DNA from: Nitrososphaerota archaeon
GTDB lineage: Archaea; Thermoproteota; Nitrososphaeria_A; Caldarchaeales; Caldarchaeaceae
Length of the DNA stretch: 64,000 nucleotides
Direction: 5' to 3'
Assembly (NCBI GenBank): GCA_041641305.1
Contig: JBEPYN010000002.1
Span: forward strand, 480,001 to 544,000
Every line of letters starts with the position of its first letter. The stretch's first letter is position 1. Positions 15,026 to 42,439 of the stretch are shown here, piece by piece. Under the pieces are notes generated by a model. That model was not told the origin of the DNA. It saw only the letters and a program-made list of their open reading frames with translations, and ran no database searches. The position numbers and the translations under genes were made by a program.

Positions 15026-15698
15026 CCATCACATGATCTTTCTCAAAAGGCTCGAGGCCGAGTGTCTCCTTTATCTCGAACCCGCTTGAGGCAAGCGTGC
15101 GCACCTCACGGTCGACCACTTTTCCCGGATCCTCGACGCTGTCGATGCTCCGCGCCTTCACAGCAAGCAGAAGACCCCCACCTCTTCGCAGCATAAGCCT
15201 CGCATTAGCGGCAACGAGGTCAGCTTGAGCGGGCCAAGCGACGTCGGCGTAGATAACATCCACGACACCGACGAGATGTGCATAGGTCTCGGGCTTCGAC
15301 GCATCAGCCAAAATAGGGACAACATTTCTCCTCCGCTCAGCGACTTTCTGGATAAACTGCTGCATAACCTTTGGAGCAAAATCAACGCCATACACAATTC
15401 CACGCAGCCCCACGATGTCTGAGACATGCGACGCAGTTGTCCCAGAAGCCGAGCCGAGATAAAGAACCCTAGACCCGGGACGGATGAAAATCTCCCTCAC
15501 ATCCTTTATGATGGCCGCGGCGAGCTTGCTTCGGAAAGGGTTCCAGACACGGTACTCCACATCATCCACTCTAACCAGCTCTTCTCCATAGACTTGGAAC
15601 CCGGGGTCAAGGCTCCTGGTCGCGGGCCTCAGCCCCTCAACACCCTCGACAACATAAACACCCTCAAAGCGTGGATGAGGCTTAACCGACACCTTCAA
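15003..15698 (-). CDS. flpA: Fibrillarin-like box C/D 2'-O-methyltransferase
   Basis: VYGE, WNPFRSKLAAAI, VLYLGSASGTTASHVSD and LEPFEKDH. Confidence 0.97.
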   Translation of the reverse strand: MKVSVKPHPRFEGVYVVEGVEGLRPATRSLDPGFQVYGEELVRVDDVEYRVWNPFRSKLAAAIIKDVREIFIRPGSRVLYLGSASGTTASHVSDIVGLRGIVYGVDFAPKVMQQFIQKVAERRRNVVPILADASKPETYAHLVGVVDVIYADVAWPAQADLVAANARLMLRRGGGLLLAVKARSIDSVEDPGKVVDREVRTLASSGFEIKETLGLEPFEKDHVMVAAIYLG

Positions 15699-16861
15699 CG
15701 TCTCCTACGCCTCCGCTCAACAGTTTTCTTCACAGGCGGCGAAGCATATTTGCGGCGTATCTCCTCAACCCTCTTCTCCAACGCCTCACGCAGCTGCGCA
15801 CCCCGATCCTCCTTAGAGAAATAGTCTATGCGCGCAGCTATGCTTATCTTGGTTGCGAGGGCCCTTGCTATCTTTCCTCTCTGCCACTTGGGTGCGGTGT
15901 GTATGAGGGGGTGCTGGAAAATCACGCCGTGTTTGGGGGAGCCGCGTCCCGTTTTCAGAAACCTGAACAACGCCTTTTCCGCACCGAGAACCTGAATAGT
16001 GCTTGCGGGAAGCCGTGCAAGACGCTCAAGCCCTCCCGCCAAAGAAATCAGCCTACTGCCCAGCACGGGGCCGGCCACGGCGGAGAGGTTCGGCGCCTCC
16101 GAAGCCATAAGCTCCCTGATGTATTCGGCGGTTTTCTCGGCCAACCTGCTGACCTCAAGCCCGAGAGAAGCTGTCGACGAAAGCATCGCCGCATCCCTCG
16201 GCCCCAGCGACCCGCCAACCGACTTCCCCGCAGCCTCTACAACACGCGCGGCCAACGCAGGGCCCAAAATCTTCGAGACCACCTTCTCATCAAAACTATG
16301 CCTCAGGACAGGCACAGCAGCCAGCTCGAGAAAATCATCCACCTCAGTCACAATCGAAGCCAGCTCCGGAAAGTGAACACCATACCACTCTCTCACACGC
16401 ACATATAGCTGGTTTCGCGTTTTCTCAAGGTCGTCAAGCACCCTCACGGCGTGGACGATGTGGAGATCCCTCCTACCAGCTTCAGCCATGATACGTTGCC
16501 GTGTCAGCGCCAACGTCACCTCCCGCACAAGGGTACGCAGTTTCTCCGCCTCTGCCGGCTCCAACGCGGCCTCAACATCGACAAGCGTCCTCTCTACCCC
16601 CTCGAGACCCAGGCCAAAAGCTGTCACAAACTTTTTCAAAACTTCGCCAACCCTGTCATCCCAATAACCCAACACAGAATATCCACGATCCCGCAATTCC
16701 CTGAGAAATCCCTCAACAAACACACTGGGCACGTCGCCCGACGAAACAATACGAACAAGCTCATCCAAATCCTCGGAAAAAGACCTCAGCAAAACAACCC
16801 TTCCACCATCATCCACAGCAGCCCAGCCGACACCCGTCGGCACCACAACAGCCCGCGACAT
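15695..16861 (-). CDS. nop5: Box C/D RNP protein Nop5 (Nop56/58)
   Basis: REWYGVHFPEL, APNL, PASTIQVLGAEKALF, PKHGVIFQHP and RGKIARALA. Confidence 0.97.
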   Translation of the reverse strand: MSRAVVVPTGVGWAAVDDGGRVVLLRSFSEDLDELVRIVSSGDVPSVFVEGFLRELRDRGYSVLGYWDDRVGEVLKKFVTAFGLGLEGVERTLVDVEAALEPAEAEKLRTLVREVTLALTRQRIMAEAGRRDLHIVHAVRVLDDLEKTRNQLYVRVREWYGVHFPELASIVTEVDDFLELAAVPVLRHSFDEKVVSKILGPALAARVVEAAGKSVGGSLGPRDAAMLSSTASLGLEVSRLAEKTAEYIRELMASEAPNLSAVAGPVLGSRLISLAGGLERLARLPASTIQVLGAEKALFRFLKTGRGSPKHGVIFQHPLIHTAPKWQRGKIARALATKISIAARIDYFSKEDRGAQLREALEKRVEEIRRKYASPPVKKTVERRRRRR

Positions 16862-34666: not shown

Positions 34667-34717
34667 ATCGGGGGTTTAGGGAGCATGGTGTGACGCCCAA
34701 CGGAAAGCTGCTGAAAC

Positions 34718-35010
34718 CTCATACTTTAGCGTCTTAAAGCCAGAACATTTCTCAGAATAGTCATATTCTTCGTCAGGTTTATAAGAGATGCATAGGGTAT
34801 TGTCCTCAACCCATAGGTCGATAGGTATGGTTCTTGGTCAGTGGCAACAGTCTCGGCCTATAGCGCGAATACACCATAGTAATTGGGAAGGTGGTGTAAA
34901 TGAGGTTCTACTGCGATGTCCATAGGAAGAGGGATGACACAGGCTACAGGGTAACATACACAACGGATGGCGAAGACTTTAGACATGTTGATTCACCGGT
35001 GGAGATACCG
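34718..35010 (+). repeat. Diverged, internally deleted copy of the 38.0-38.45 kb module (remnants of the small Zn-protein gene and the IS110/Nop-like gene)
   Basis: Minus strand encodes IDLWVEDNTLCISYKPDEEYD (cf. 37904-38164). Plus strand from ATG 34900 encodes MRFYCDVHRKRDDTGYRVTYTTDGEDFRHVDSPVEIP (34/37 aa identical to the 38332 protein), then unrelated sequence to a stop at 35058. Confidence 0.92.
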
Positions 35011-35064
35011 GCAGGCCTGGCTGCGGAAAAACACGCTTATATAGGGTTTGGGTGTTGAGTATGT

Positions 35065-37797: not shown

Positions 37798-37903
37798 TCC
37801 ACTCAATCACTACTATGTCTGTTATATAAAGATCGTCGAAGGTTAAACCAATTTTCTCCAAAACCTTCGCCAATAAATCCCTTGGAAAACAATTCGAGGA
37901 CAG

Positions 37904-38164
37904 CTATTTAGGTAGGTTGTTTTTCTTTTTTCTTGGTTTTGTTCTTATTTTTATTGCGTGGAATGGGCATTTTTGAAATTGTTCAAGAATGTGTCCTTTC
38001 TGGCATTTTGAGCAGAAGCCTATACCCTCCTCATAATTCGGGGTTTTAAAGGTAGGAATATTCTCATAGTGGTCATATTCCTCGTCAGGTTTATAAGACA
38101 TGCATAGGATATTGTCCTCAACCCATAGGTCTATAAATAATCGATTTTCCCTCATCCACGCCAT
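37904..38164 (-). CDS. Small Zn-finger-like protein
   Basis: CSKC...CPFH...IRTKPR motif with basic tail; a homologous remnant at 34718-34823 supports coding status. Confidence 0.6.
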   Translation of the reverse strand: MAWMRENRLFIDLWVEDNILCMSYKPDEEYDHYENIPTFKTPNYEEGIGFCSKCQKGHILEQFQKCPFHAIKIRTKPRKKKNNLPK

Positions 38165-38331
38165 TATTCAAGTCGTTATTAGACAGGTATGCATGGTGGC
38201 TTGGTATCCTAAGCCTAAGCCCAGCCGTAGTATAATACCTATTTTTTTGGTAATGGCTTTAAACCAGTTTTTAGGTTATGGGGGACATGGCCACTACCTA
38301 TGGCACGAATACACCAAAGAAAGTGGTGTAG

Positions 38332-39180
38332 ATGAGGTTCTACGCTGATGTTCATCGGAAGAGGGATGACACAGGCTATCGGATAACCTATACAACTGAT
38401 GGTGAAGACTTTAGACATGTTGATTCTCCGTCGGAGATACCGGTAGAAGCTGGAGACAAAGTATACGTAGACACAATACCGATAATACATACAGATGGTT
38501 TCATAGAGCTTCTTAGAAGAGGTGCTGAGGTTTACTATCTGAGGAGACTAACCATGATTGAGGCTGTGAGGCAGAAGATGGGGATAAAATCCAAGTCCGC
38601 GAGGACAGATATCAAGGCTTTGATGGCTGTTGATGATAAGTGGTTCCGTAGAGTGGATGAGAATTTCTTGGTGATGCGACAGATGATTTCGGCGTTTAGA
38701 AGTTTGGAGAGAACTATGCAGAGGCTGGAGAACCAGCTCAAGGCGGCTTCATCTGCTACCGAGGAGAGCTTGAGGAGAATGGTAAAACAAGTAGAGATAG
38801 AGAAAGAGGTCTTAGCCAAACGGATTTCAGAGGAGGCGGCGAAGAGGTTCCCAGTCTTCGTAAAGGTTGTGGAAGAGCTAGGGATAATGGGAGAGAACCA
38901 TGTATTGGCTTGTGAAGCTTTGGCGGAGCTGCTAACCTACGTCGACTTCAGCAAATCCTTTAGACAAGTGCGAGGATACCTACGGCTCTACAGGAAACGT
39001 TCAAAAAACCAGACGTATAACCACGAGACACGCCATGCGCTAACAAGGCTCACAATGGCAACAACAAGAAATACACCAAACGCCCATAAACAAGAAGACA
39101 TACTGATGAAGATATGGCTGACAATCAGACAGGAAACCCAAGAGAGGCTGGCAGGCATACCGGCCCAACAACAGGGATAA
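38332..39180 (+). CDS. IS110-related RuvC(DEDD)-coiled coil-Nop/Tnp20-fold protein (TasR-like architecture)
   Basis: YADVHRK (cf. GIDVHK), VYVD, KSARTDIKAL (cf. KTDxxDA), a coiled coil, then LAELLTYVDF...VRGYLRL...YNHETR (cf. IS110 Tnp20/Nop domain). Confidence 0.7.
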   Translation: MRFYADVHRKRDDTGYRITYTTDGEDFRHVDSPSEIPVEAGDKVYVDTIPIIHTDGFIELLRRGAEVYYLRRLTMIEAVRQKMGIKSKSARTDIKALMAVDDKWFRRVDENFLVMRQMISAFRSLERTMQRLENQLKAASSATEESLRRMVKQVEIEKEVLAKRISEEAAKRFPVFVKVVEELGIMGENHVLACEALAELLTYVDFSKSFRQVRGYLRLYRKRSKNQTYNHETRHALTRLTMATTRNTPNAHKQEDILMKIWLTIRQETQERLAGIPAQQQG

Positions 39181-39307
39181 AACCCAGAAGCCGGTATGTC
39201 CTGTTATATAGCGAGCTGACTCTTTCGCCAGCTATGTCTAGTTTATAAACGGCCGGCTTCTTTCATGGGTTTCCTAGGTGTTGTTGCTGGTTGGTTGCCT
39301 GCCAGCC
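39146..39307 (+). ncRNA. Candidate structured RNA (long rod-like hairpin) overlapping the 3' end of the IS110/Nop-like gene
   Basis: Nested helices 39146-57/39296-307 (12 bp), 39166-73/39279-86, 39180-86/39266-72, 39187-95/39252-60 and 39214-18/39229-33, with several G-U pairs on the + strand. Confidence 0.6.
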
Positions 39308-39317
39308 AACCACCCCC

Positions 39318-39332
39318 TTATTTTTTCCCTTA
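39318..39332 (+). terminator. Oligo-T tract after the hairpin
   Basis: TTATTTTTTCCCTTA just after the hairpin base; oligo-U termination is standard in archaea. Confidence 0.45.
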
Positions 39333-39520
39333 ATTTATGTCCATATAAACTAACAGGGAAAACCACAACTAGGTATCTATTTCTTTCATTTTCCTCTTAC
39401 GAATGCTCAAATAAGCAATTCATGGTTTAAAGCTATGTAATAAACCAACTAGACATATCATAGGTTGATAAGTTAATATACAGGGTTGGCTAAAGTGGGC
39501 GTCGGGCAGCCGAGTAACAA

Positions 39521-41440
39521 ATGGTGGCCGGTCTGAAAAAACTTTCATGCTACAACAAACCCCTGAACTTTCCCGAGAATAATTTTGACCACGAATGGTG
39601 GAAAAAAATTTTCAACGAGTACTACCTTGTTACAGATGGGGACGTTGTCTGCAACCAAGAATTGACCAAATACGAGGTCGACCTCATAGTCAAGCTTCTC
39701 GACCTCGATAAAACCGATGCGGTGCTAGACCTTTGCTGCGGCAACGGCAGACACGCAATAGAGCTCGCTAGAAGAGGTTACAGGGATATACATGGGCTCG
39801 ACTACTCCAGGTTTCTGTTAAACGTTGCCAGAAATTCAGCTAGACAAGAGGGGCTGAAAATAGACTTCAGATGGGGGGATGCAAGGAGCTTGCCCTTCGC
39901 GGATAATTCATTCGATGCAGTTATTTTAATGGGAAACAGCTTCGGATACTTCGCTGAAATAGATGATGACCTGAGAGTCCTAAGAGAAGTGAGACGTGTC
40001 CTAAGACCTTATGGCAGAATCCTCATCGACGTTGTAGATAGAGAACAGTTCTTAAAACATTTGGAGCCAATCAGCAGTGAAAAAAATGGAGATGTTCAAA
40101 TAATTAGACTGCGGAGGGTCATCGGTCGAAACAGATTGGTGACGCGTGAAATTGTTATCAGGGAAAACACGGAGGTATTAACCGACCATGTCTATGGCGT
40201 TAGACTATACAGCTTCTCAGAACTCAAATGCATGCTGGAGCAGGCAGAGTTCGCAAATGTGACTCTCAAAGCCAGTATCTCATACAATCCTGAAGGAAAG
40301 GACCCTGGAATGCTCAAAACTAGGATGGTCGTTACAGCATTATCTTCGAAGGAGAACATCGTTACAGCCCACAAGCCGCTCATAGCGGTGCTCATCGGTG
40401 ATCCAAGTAGACGCAATCCTGTTAAGCCTGGTGCAGTATTAGATGAAGATGATGTCTATGCGGTTAACGAGTTAAAATCAGCTCTCATAGGTATAAGAAA
40501 GTATCAATTCTGTTTCCTCGATAACCACGACTCATTTCTAGAATACTTGAAGGCAAACAAGAACTCAATTCATATCGTCCTCAACTTATGTGATGACGGA
40601 TTTCACAACGACCCGCATATGGAGGGGCATGTTCCAGCTTTGTTAGAGATGCTAGGGCTGCGGTATACTGGTGCTGGGCCAAGATGCCTATTCCTATGCT
40701 ATGACAAAGCAGCCGTCAATGCGATCGCAGAATCAATGAGCATCCCTGTACCAGAGTATGTGCTAATTAACAACCAGGATGAACTGAACATAATACCTAG
40801 ACGAATTTATCCCGCTATAGTGAAGCCTAACTTCGCAGATAACAGCTGGGGAATAACTGCGAAAAGTATTGTTCGGGACAGAACCGAGTTGGAATCTGCA
40901 ATTCATCAATTGAAGATTGAATGGGGCTACCATGGCCCAGTATTGGTGCAACACTATGTTGAAGGAAAAGATCTGACAACCGCTTTAATAGGAAATCCGC
41001 CAGATTTCATTGTGCTACCGATTCTGACAGAAGATTATTCTTGTTTACCTGACGGGCTTCCGAGAATTCTGACCTATGATGCAAAGTGGGTTCCAGACTC
41101 TCCATATGGTTGTGTACAGTCGGTACCGGCTACACTTAATTCCGATATAAGACACAGGCTAGTCAACTGGAGCAAAGAGCTGTTCATAAGGCTGGAGTGC
41201 AGAGATTATGCGAGATTTGATTGGAGATTGGGATATGATGGTACTCCATGGCTGTTAGAGGCTAACCCAAATCCTGGATGGGTCTGGGATGGTCATCTCA
41301 GAAAGGCATGCAATTATATGGGATGGAGTTACAAGAAGATGTTTCAAGCCATCATTGAGGCGACTGAGAAACGTTATAGAACGGCCAACTCCAAACAACA
41401 CATTAGTATTCATCCTCAAAAGATTGAAGCCATACACTGA
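39521..41440 (+). CDS. SAM methyltransferase fused to a D-Ala-D-Ala-ligase-like ATP-grasp domain
   Basis: N-terminal LDLCCGNGRH...NSFGYF; C-terminal YTGAG...YDKA, IVKPNFADNSWGI, RDYARFDWR and LEANPNP. Confidence 0.88.
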   Translation: MVAGLKKLSCYNKPLNFPENNFDHEWWKKIFNEYYLVTDGDVVCNQELTKYEVDLIVKLLDLDKTDAVLDLCCGNGRHAIELARRGYRDIHGLDYSRFLLNVARNSARQEGLKIDFRWGDARSLPFADNSFDAVILMGNSFGYFAEIDDDLRVLREVRRVLRPYGRILIDVVDREQFLKHLEPISSEKNGDVQIIRLRRVIGRNRLVTREIVIRENTEVLTDHVYGVRLYSFSELKCMLEQAEFANVTLKASISYNPEGKDPGMLKTRMVVTALSSKENIVTAHKPLIAVLIGDPSRRNPVKPGAVLDEDDVYAVNELKSALIGIRKYQFCFLDNHDSFLEYLKANKNSIHIVLNLCDDGFHNDPHMEGHVPALLEMLGLRYTGAGPRCLFLCYDKAAVNAIAESMSIPVPEYVLINNQDELNIIPRRIYPAIVKPNFADNSWGITAKSIVRDRTELESAIHQLKIEWGYHGPVLVQHYVEGKDLTTALIGNPPDFIVLPILTEDYSCLPDGLPRILTYDAKWVPDSPYGCVQSVPATLNSDIRHRLVNWSKELFIRLECRDYARFDWRLGYDGTPWLLEANPNPGWVWDGHLRKACNYMGWSYKKMFQAIIEATEKRYRTANSKQHISIHPQKIEAIH

Positions 41441-41497
41441 GAAAATTGGGTGTTGGAACTAGCTTGTTTATGTTAATTTAAATACAGTGGCTGCAGC

Positions 41498-42439
41498 ATG
41501 AATAATGTGAGCAAGAAGGTCTTGGTGGCAGACTCTATTGACAAAGCGGCTGTTGATGTTCTCGAAGATGCGGGTTTCCAGGTTGATTTACGTCCAGGGA
41601 TTTCCGCGGAGGAGCTTGAATCCGTGATAGGTGGCTATGATGTGTTGCTTGTCCGTGGGAGGACAAAGGTAACTGCGAAGGTTATTGAACGCGGTGTTCC
41701 CGTGTTGAAGGTTGTTGGCCGTGCTGGAGTTGGACTCGACAACGTTGACCTCGAGGCTGCGGCGCGGCATGGCGTCAAGGTGCTGAACACACCAGAGTCA
41801 ACGACCGAAAGCGTTGCGGAGCTCGTCGTCGGGTTGATGATAGCCGTGGCCCGTAAAATCGCTTGGTGTGATAGACAGGTTCGCTCAGGTAAGTGGCCGA
41901 AGTCCGAGGCCATGGGCGTAGAACTGGCTGGGAAAACCCTCGGTGTTGTGGGCTATGGACGGATCGGGAGACGTGTCGCCGAGATAGCATATGCCATGGG
42001 GATGAAGGTTGTTGCCTACGACGTCATACCCATTCCGGAGGAGATTTTGGCAAAAGCCGGGGCCAGGCTCACAAGCCTCGAGGAAGTGCTGCAGACAGCA
42101 GATGTCATAACCCTGCATGTACCTCTTACACCCGAGACAAGACACCTAATCGATGCAAGCAAACTGGAGATGATGAAGCCGACCGCCATACTCATAAACG
42201 CGTCACGTGGAGAGGTGATAGACGAGGAAGCACTCTACAACGCTCTCAAAGACGGTAGAATAGCGGGCGCGGGTCTCGATGTTTTCGAGAAAGAGCCACC
42301 CACCGGGAGCAAGCTTCTCACGCTCGACAATGTTGTGCTCACTCCGCACATAGGTGCTCAGACTCGGGAGGCTCAGGAGGCTGCTGCAACGATGCTGGCG
42401 AAAAAAGTTATCGAAGTGTTTGCTTCAATGAGTTCTTGA
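41498..42439 (+). CDS. serA: D-3-phosphoglycerate dehydrogenase / D-2-hydroxyacid dehydrogenase
   Basis: GRAGVGLDNVD, GYGRIG, INASRG, DVFEKEP and TPHIGAQT; no ACT domain. Confidence 0.85.
   Translation: MNNVSKKVLVADSIDKAAVDVLEDAGFQVDLRPGISAEELESVIGGYDVLLVRGRTKVTAKVIERGVPVLKVVGRAGVGLDNVDLEAAARHGVKVLNTPESTTESVAELVVGLMIAVARKIAWCDRQVRSGKWPKSEAMGVELAGKTLGVVGYGRIGRRVAEIAYAMGMKVVAYDVIPIPEEILAKAGARLTSLEEVLQTADVITLHVPLTPETRHLIDASKLEMMKPTAILINASRGEVIDEEALYNALKDGRIAGAGLDVFEKEPPTGSKLLTLDNVVLTPHIGAQTREAQEAAATMLAKKVIEVFASMSS

What the first reader, a model, noticed from the sequence alone, without database searches (positions are those of the whole stretch)
38332..39180. Compact IS110/Nop-fold protein with remodelled catalytic sites: candidate new RNA-guided effector
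Seen: the 282-aa protein has an N-terminal RuvC-like segment (YADVHRK...VYVD...KSARTD), a coiled coil and a Tnp20/Nop-like C-terminus. By eye the DEDD tetrad reads D-D-A-D, because KTD has become KSA. The loop that carries the catalytic Ser in IS110 recombinases (GLxPxxxxSG...GN) is shrunk to RLYRKRSKNQTYN. Known: IS110 recombinases use bridge RNAs, and their RNA-binding domain is homologous to Nop5 (also in this window) and to TIGR-Tas proteins; TasR has RuvC plus Nop and lacks the Ser wedge. Inference: this is not a canonical transposase. It may be a TasR-like nuclease/nickase or a catalytically reduced RNA-guided DNA binder paired with the adjacent RNA, i.e. an archaeal intermediate between IS110, Tas and Nop5.
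Basis: partly seen in the sequence, partly recalled or inferred. Interest (0 to 1): 0.9.

Follow-up and report, generated by a model that had tools for sequence, protein, structure and literature searches.

The report
Self-targeting RNA-guided archaeal mobile element
This small gene and the folded RNA at its end form a mobile element of hot-spring archaea whose two 9-base guides spell out the exact DNA site where each copy has landed, in one case together with 117 kb of cargo, although the protein lacks the serine that related programmable recombinases need.

Summary
Confirmed: the 282-aa protein has the IS110/TasR fold, a D-D-A-D tetrad and no serine loop. This is family-wide, not decay; the lost acid is the one that in IS621 holds the serine loop. 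A stem-loop RNA overlapping the stop codon carries two 9-nt guides (39201-39209, 39239-39247) matching the two halves of the element's own insertion site (37819, 39343). The match holds across 31 loci (right half 15, expected 1.7), and empty sites in a sister genome carry the predicted 15-19-bp targets. Insertions range from 1.3 kb to 14.7 kb (type III-A CRISPR cargo) and 117 kb, with variable 3-7-bp duplications centred on the TasR cut window and no conserved ends. Basal relatives target tRNA genes and bring an intron that breaks the target. Best reading: an RNA-guided nuclease whose break captures its own locus; cutting and joining are inferred, not shown. A Nop5 intermediate is not supported. 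The element was noted in 2012 as a putative transposon without the RNA, and this scan found the family earlier on other genomes.

The parts
37819..37828 (+). Left half of the target: spacer-A match (37819-37827) ending in the duplicated A/T core; on the minus strand it overlaps the TATA-like box of the rpS26e gene
   Evidence: 9/9 match to spacer A; TATA assignment from position about 25 nt before the S26e start (sequence; inference)
37829..39342 (.). Inserted element, about 1.5 kb, between the two half-targets
   Evidence: the stretch 37807-41505 is missing between S26e and serA in the sister genome G009
37833..37911 (+). Segment also found at another chromosomal site (C2:63154-63265, 94%), part of the mosaic left portion
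37904..38164 (-). Divergent 86-aa Cys/His zinc-finger-like ORF with a basic tail; candidate accessory gene
   Evidence: no Pfam hit; homologues lie near the left ends of the 14.7-kb and 117-kb elements and beside other family loci
38282..38331 (+). Remnant of the 3' end of an upstream gene that abuts the start codon in two other copies of this genome
38332..39180 (+). TasR/IS110-fold protein: RuvC-like domain (about 1-108; D6, D47, K88, A90, D93), coiled coil (110-172), Nop-like domain (174-273) without a serine loop; the last 11 codons double as the RNA 5' arm
   Evidence: homodimer model through the coiled coil
39146..39307 (+). Predicted guide RNA: long outer stem closing one symmetric internal loop with an inner hairpin
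   Evidence: MFE -83.1 kcal/mol, z -7.4; 14 of 31 consensus pairs show double changes in 18 sequences; no Rfam hit; one per gene, no arrays in this genome; expression not shown
39201..39209 (+). Spacer A (9 nt) between a C-like box (39196-39200) and a D-like box (39210-39213)
39214..39233 (+). Inner hairpin separating the two spacers
39239..39247 (+). Spacer B (9 nt) between the repeated boxes (39234-39238 and 39248-39251)
39308..39335 (+). C-rich then T-rich tract, terminator-like, present in all loci examined
39343..39352 (+). Right half of the target: duplicated core plus the reverse complement of spacer B (39344-39352)
   Evidence: 9/9 match

Best explanation
The locus is a self-targeting RNA-guided mobile element. 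Shown by genome comparison: each copy lies inside a 15-19-bp site spelled by its own two spacers, spacer A reading one strand and spacer B the other, in either orientation; the intact site exists in genomes without the copy. Inferred from homology: a protein dimer binds the single stem-loop RNA through the two boxes, pairs each spacer with one strand, and the D6/D47/D93 RuvC sites cut both strands after spacer position 5, as TasR does, leaving short 3' overhangs. Inferred from the junctions: DNA that carries the gene and RNA near one end (1.3 to 117 kb) is captured into the break by host end joining or target-primed copying, which keeps most of both overhangs and so gives a variable 3-7-bp duplication and unfixed element ends. 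Insertion splits the target and makes the host immune; the same cut should also spread the insert into empty alleles by recombination (homing). The third acid was dispensable once the serine loop it stabilises was gone.
For: Own spacers match the right junction in 15 of 31 loci (1.7 expected from other loci's spacers), the left in 10 (3.8), both in 6 (0.07); no permutation of 20000 reached the right or both counts. Empty sites: exact for L109, L111, L112 and two copies of this genome; within 1-2 substitutions for L105, L107, L108, L110 in genomes about 85% alike. In 8 loci with both junctions all 18 spacer bases match, the left side keeps target bases 1 to 9-12 and the right side 4-9 to the end, around the window 6-10/11 that the TasR C-5 rule (PMC12045711) predicts. 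No shared end sequence and no donor loop. No match to tyrosine integrase, resolvase, Y1 transposase or Transposase_20 families in this 99% complete genome. D6, D47, D93, K88 fixed. Homodimer model through the coiled coil: score 0.74, best control 0.01; the mark was reached by 20 of 30 solved homodimers and 1 of 23 single chains; runs agree in 97% of contacts, pLDDT 87; may pass by likeness to TasR/IS621. Patchy, multi-copy distribution (0-36 matches per genome).
Against: No cutting, binding or expression data. TaTasR has four conserved acids at its site (PMC12045711) and D102 mutation abolishes IS621 recombination (PMC11208158), so three acids may not suffice; an Arg/Lys follows position 90 and could fill the pocket as in dead PateTasR (preprint 10.64898/2026.09.09.750476). 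The model does not explain why gene and RNA always lie 70-650 nt from one junction even in the 117-kb insert, nor how so large a donor is captured. About half of the loci show no clean junction match. The empty allele of this window's own site was not found, so its target length (15 or 17 bp) is inferred.
Confidence: 0.6

Rival explanations
1. The protein is itself a serine-independent RNA-guided integrase or recombinase that cuts the target and joins the donor, recognising the donor by structure, by the old A/T core or in cis.
For: Overlapping spacers with a conserved A/T core resemble the IS110 core (spacer positions 6-9 are 80-90% identical among sisters); gene and RNA are always next to one junction; three copies in one genome share the same right end at different sites; no other recombinase family found in the genome.
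Against: Variable duplication length and no conserved ends; no serine and no donor loop; keeping both target 3' overhangs is not what DDE strand transfer gives (inference, assuming TasR cut geometry).
Confidence: 0.2
2. The Ala-clade protein is a dead RNA-guided DNA binder that marks the site for another enzyme (accessory gene, host nuclease or a D-D-D-D paralogue in trans), or acts as a repressor at promoters.
For: Dead stem-loop TasR proteins bind DNA and repress (preprint 10.64898/2026.09.09.750476); many targets are TATA-like; D-D-D-D paralogues occur in some of the same genomes (L112, L121); a small zinc-finger ORF travels with several copies.
Against: Three acids stay fixed in 123 homologues whereas the published dead TasR proteins lose them; this genome has no detectable D-D-D-D paralogue; the target is destroyed by the insertion, so there is no intact site to repress in the host; the accessory ORF is absent from the G009 copies tested.
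Confidence: 0.12
3. On the origin of the match (compatible with the above): spacers are rewritten from the new site at or after insertion, rather than drifting by point mutation until they meet a site.
For: Spacer positions 1-5 of sister copies are 28-32% identical (chance level) while genes are 86-89% and scaffolds 88-95% identical; 18/18 matches in 8 of 8 fully mapped loci.
Against: 2.6% of shuffled spacer pairs already have a perfect 7+7 site in this genome, so stepwise mutation with selection at each hop is feasible; one spacer is shared by three copies at different sites; L017 and L028 share both spacers and L017's right junction has a mismatch.
Confidence: 0.25
4. A decayed IS110 copy with no present function.
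For: Broken copies exist in the family.
Against: 232 homologues with the same changes; four intact copies at 64-66% identity in this genome; spacers still match both junctions.
Confidence: 0.02

Closest known systems
TIGR-Tas with TasR, stem-loop type (Faure et al. 2025, PMC12045711; PDB 9mty; preprint 10.64898/2026.09.09.750476)
   Same: Best full-length structural match; RuvC + coiled coil + Nop architecture without a serine; two 9-nt spacers between symmetric boxes in a stem-loop with an inner hairpin; one spacer per strand; basal members have 17-19-bp targets.
   Different: One RNA unit per gene, no array; chromosomal multi-copy element in Caldarchaeales; the target is the element's own insertion site (natural targets of most TIGR spacers are undetermined); spacers overlap by 2-3 nt in the derived clade, whereas TaTasR spacers are reported not to overlap; three of four acids kept.
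IS110/IS1111 bridge-RNA recombinases (IS621, ISCro4; PMC11208158; PDB 8wt6, 8wt9, 9t56)
   Same: Same fold; mobile element whose RNA loop specifies its insertion site through two guides on opposite strands with a shared core; RNA at the 3' end of the gene.
   Different: No S241 loop, D102 lost, E60 read as D; only one guide loop, no donor loop; no conserved ends or fixed core repeat; variable 3-7-bp duplications; no PF01548/PF02371 hit; cargo up to 117 kb.
Putative transposable element of Caldiarchaeum subterraneum (regions a and b; Sugahara et al. 2012, PMC3293823)
   Same: Same family: the 813-bp ORF beside tRNA-Thr(GGU) corresponds by position and length to L111; the paper reports a 1,868-bp insertion, an empty-site fosmid and intron gain at 24/25.
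   Different: The paper saw no guide RNA and no IS110/Tas fold and proposed a pNOB8-type integrase origin; here the spacers are shown to spell the intron-less tRNA target.
TnpB/IscB (OMEGA) transposon homing nucleases (own knowledge)
   Same: RNA-guided nuclease aimed at the element's empty site.
   Different: There the guide is read through from the flank and a separate TnpA moves the element; here the guides are internal and no partner transposase was found.
Archaeal Nop5 (PF01798; window 15698-16858, minus strand)
   Same: Shared Nop-domain ancestry by the literature (PMC11213020); the boxes of some subfamilies read like C/D boxes.
   Different: Nop5 is a single-copy scaffold for RNA methylation; this clade is derived from four-acid relatives and is mobile; no special closeness to Nop5 was seen.

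Membership tests
IS110/IS1111 bridge recombinase | RuvC + coiled coil + Tnp/Nop fold | tested here: met
IS110/IS1111 bridge recombinase | DEDD tetrad | tested here: not met
   D-D-A-D; position 90 is not D in the close clade
IS110/IS1111 bridge recombinase | Catalytic serine loop (S241, SG) | tested here: not met
   0 of 123 close homologues have SG in the loop; median length 15 residues
IS110/IS1111 bridge recombinase | RNA loop that specifies the target on both strands | tested here: met
   (sequence match; RNA itself not observed)
IS110/IS1111 bridge recombinase | Second (donor-binding) loop and conserved donor ends | tested here: not met
   single loop in the consensus structure; no shared end sequence
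IS110/IS1111 bridge recombinase | Circular intermediate | tested here: inconclusive
   no such joint in four laid runs with low or patchy coverage
TIGR-Tas (TasR) | Nop-domain protein with N-terminal RuvC and no serine wedge | tested here: met
   9mty Z 15.5, rmsd 3.8, 243 aligned
TIGR-Tas (TasR) | Dual 8-12-nt spacers flanked by symmetric box C/D-like motifs | tested here: met
   box letters differ from CCA/UG and vary by subfamily
TIGR-Tas (TasR) | Array of several guide units | tested here: not met
   four RNA copies for four genes in this genome; one unit in each locus read
TIGR-Tas (TasR) | Tandem targeting, one spacer per strand | tested here: met
   empty sites equal spacer plus reverse complement of the other spacer
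TIGR-Tas (TasR) | Symmetric dimer through the coiled coil | tested here: inconclusive
   model supports it (0.74 against best control 0.01) but may pass by likeness to solved relatives
TIGR-Tas (TasR) | RNA binding, processing and guide-dependent cleavage at C-5 | not testable with these tools
   needs RNP purification; junction duplications are only consistent with it
TIGR-Tas (TasR) | Placement inside a published Tas clade | not tested
   no TasR sequences could be fetched for a joint tree
Nop5 | PF01798 Nop domain match | tested here: not met
   no PF01798 hit for the protein or 45 homologues, while the window's Nop5 hits at 5.5e-63
Nop5 | Structural closeness to Nop5 | tested here: inconclusive
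   not listed among the top rows of either fold search; an unlisted family is not excluded

The most novel reading that the evidence does not exclude
A single 282-aa protein and one 160-nt RNA are sufficient, with host repair at most, to insert DNA of 1 to over 100 kb at any 15-19-bp site without a catalytic serine, donor guide or fixed ends; the element rewrites its own spacers; and its tRNA-targeting members are a direct cause of archaeal tRNA intron gain. That would be a distinct mode of RNA-guided transposition beside IS110 and CRISPR-associated transposons.
Probability: 0.3. Interest if true: 0.97.

Novelty: new variant of a known kind. Interest (0 to 1): 0.87.

Why it matters
It supplies natural targets for a Tas-like RNA-guided protein, which the TIGR papers list as unknown along with how spacers change, and it offers many matched guide-site pairs with empty alleles to test both. 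It shows a serine-less IS110/Tas relative tied to site-specific insertion of whole islands (a type III-A CRISPR module; 117 kb with conjugation-like genes) in a genome where no tyrosine or serine recombinase family was detected. It gives a mechanism for the 2012 observation of tRNA intron gain in Caldiarchaeum: the intron lies inside the guide's target. If it cuts, it is a very small, likely thermostable, programmable nuclease; if it joins, a compact integrase.

Tried and rejected
Pfam, NCBIfam, PDB sequence and Rfam searches gave nothing useful for the protein or RNA. No relative in viral contigs with the patterns used. A metagenome scan for the window's predicted empty site gave three hits, all unrelated chance matches. 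No RNA holder listed; the one metatranscriptome laid gave 2 reads on S26e only, and three DNA runs showed no joint across the element and no circle junction, at low or patchy coverage: no evidence either way. Nop5 was not listed in either fold search, and the profile comparison with the window's Nop5 was blank (probability 0.3), a weak test against one sequence. The L109 row matched the RNA's own spacer as the left junction and was discarded; one search was used. Microhomology at captured right ends was checked for one donor locus and not found, so the joining route stays open. A helper recombinase was sought among 107 cargo and neighbour proteins; none in the 25 families shown of 80 (Pfam) and 244 (NCBIfam), which does not exclude one. 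One TnpB-like match exists elsewhere in the genome with no sign of a link. Retrotransposition was rejected for the large inserts (117 kb, genes on both strands). Literature searches found no paper describing the RNA or the guide-site match.

Full report
Observation. The ORF at 38332-39180 encodes 282 aa with the motifs quoted. Family libraries and PDB sequences give no hit, but a confident model (pLDDT 90.7) matches IS110 recombinases and TasR in Foldseek (E 2e-7 to 8e-5), and TasR 9mty is the best full-length match in VIA-align (Z 15.5, rmsd 3.8, 243 aligned). A profile of distant homologues hits TasH (E 1e-4) and IS621 (E 1.4e-3) and aligns the K-S-x-x-x-D motif with IS621 K-T-D-x-x-D. The Atlas feature search points the same way (clusters with Transposase_20 on 28-44% of members).

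Catalytic sites. In 123 close homologues D6, D47, K88 and D93 are fixed, position 90 is A, T, G, V, S or E, and no serine loop exists; in 39 distant homologues position 90 is D in 31 and the loop is just as short. The Ala clade is one well supported branch (100/97) nested among four-acid relatives (midpoint root). [quoted passage not shown] Loss of this acid therefore fits loss of the serine loop and does not by itself mean a dead nuclease. That three acids still cut is inference.

The RNA. A 162-nt stem-loop overlaps the stop codon (z -7.4), with compensatory changes in 14 of 31 consensus pairs. It has one internal loop with two repeats of box, 9-nt spacer, box, separated by an inner hairpin. 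The genome holds four intact genes (64-66% identical) and exactly four such RNAs: no arrays and no donor loop.

The guides spell the insertion site. Spacer A matches 37819-37827 and the reverse complement of spacer B matches 39344-39352, each 9/9, with an A/T core present at both junctions. Across 31 loci the first seven bases of a locus's own spacers are found at the right junction 15 times (1.7 expected), at the left 10 times (3.8), at both 6 times (0.07); both orientations occur. Comparison of this genome with a sister genome (G009, about 85% alike, 1.68 Mb, matching C. subterraneum by size and gene positions) gives empty sites in both directions. Copies in G009 correspond to uninterrupted sites here that equal the predicted target exactly (L109, L111, L112) or within 1-2 substitutions (L105, L107, L108, L110). 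Two copies of this genome have exact empty sites in G009. Targets are 15 or 16 bp where spacers overlap by 3 or 2 nt, and 17-19 bp in basal members.

Size and cargo. The window's insert is 1.5 kb. A second copy closes a 14.7-kb insert with a type III-A-like CRISPR module (Cas10, RAMP proteins, Cas6-like, CARF protein, short array). A third closes a 116.7-kb insert with HerA/TrwB-type and type II/IV secretion ATPases, pilin-like genes, primase, helicases and ribonucleotide reductase. Gene and RNA always lie 70-650 nt from one junction. The genome has no match to PF00589, PF00239, PF01797 or PF02371.

Junctions. In eight fully mapped loci all 18 spacer bases match; the left side keeps target positions 1 to 9-12, the right side starts at 4-9, giving 3-7-bp duplications around positions 6-10/11. 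TasR cuts between spacer positions 5 and 6 on each strand and leaves 3' overhangs (PMC12045711); applied to overlapping spacers this predicts that window. Element ends share no sequence, left parts are mosaics, and some right ends carry host DNA from an earlier site (a gene fragment shared by two copies). This looks like a staggered break repaired with capture of the locus, not conservative recombination. This step is inference.

tRNA-targeting members. Basal members, some with four acids and some with Ala, carry the same kind of RNA; their spacers match intron-less tRNA genes (Arg, Tyr, Asn, Met, Thr, Leu) of this genome, and in five loci the tRNA copy next to the element has extra sequence inside the spacer-A half. 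For tRNA-Thr this is the insertion described by Sugahara et al. 2012 (PMC3293823), who called the ORF a putative recombinase and did not see the RNA.

Spacer change. Positions 1-5 of sister copies are at chance identity (28-32%) against 86-89% for genes. Because 2.6% of shuffled spacer pairs have a perfect site in this genome, mutation plus selection at each hop can explain this; active rewriting is not excluded.

Range and prior notice. Matches were found only in the order Caldarchaeales among 400 genomes of the phylum searched (28 genomes). Published stem-loop TasR proteins are dead repressors with arrays, mostly from CPR bacteria, and their natural targets and spacer acquisition are unknown. 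I found no paper on this RNA or match. This scan's earlier reports on other genomes reached the same reading; I had reached it independently, and their agreement is not evidence.

Verdict. Works like a TasR nuclease for targeting and like an IS110 element for lifestyle; a member of neither by the defining tests. New variant of the IS110/TIGR-Tas kind, with an open chance of a new insertion mechanism. Interest 0.87.

Noticed in passing
window 34700-35020: A 5' fragment of the same gene (39 codons, 87% identical) with a remnant of the zinc-finger ORF upstream, between V-ATPase subunit D and prolyl-tRNA synthetase; no RNA. Probably a deleted older insertion.
   Followed up: partly
window 39521-41440: Low-GC 639-aa fusion of a methyltransferase and a D-Ala-D-Ala ligase-like domain, absent from the same place in the sister genome; lies outside the guide-defined element.
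   Followed up: partly
G000 C1:439870-454532 (L125): Complete type III-A-like CRISPR effector module with a short array and no cas1 seen among the ORFs listed, carried as cargo inside a guide-defined insertion.
   Followed up: partly
G000 C2:346790-463470 (L167-L170, L165, L166, L127): 116.7-kb island with conjugation- or DNA-transfer-like ATPases, pilin-like genes, primase, helicases and RadB-like proteins, with no recognised integrase.
   Followed up: partly
G000 C1:515540-524160 (L124): 8.6-kb insert with a GmrSD-like restriction protein; exact 5-bp duplication, one spacer mismatched at positions 6 and 8.
   Followed up: partly
L111 and L112 (G009): Two elements have exchanged flanks, leaving a tRNA-Thr 5' stub far from the intron-bearing gene; matches the rearrangement reported in PMC3293823.
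   Followed up: yes
L108, L080, L087, L093, L097: Derived-clade copies often sit just upstream of tRNA genes; for L108 the target is the A/T box about 25 nt before the tRNA.
   Followed up: partly
L013-L053 (contigs JAVVGN01): One Caldarchaeales MAG holds over 25 copies from at least three RNA subfamilies with different boxes, many broken; suited to tracing spacer change.
   Followed up: partly
window 38367-39140 (run X9): A contig skips 772 bases of the gene but keeps the RNA start: possibly a non-autonomous derivative in a related population.
   Followed up: no
window 37819-37824 and 39349-39354: The two flanks form a 6-bp inverted repeat around the core, so the reconstructed site is partly palindromic; may be chance.
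   Followed up: no
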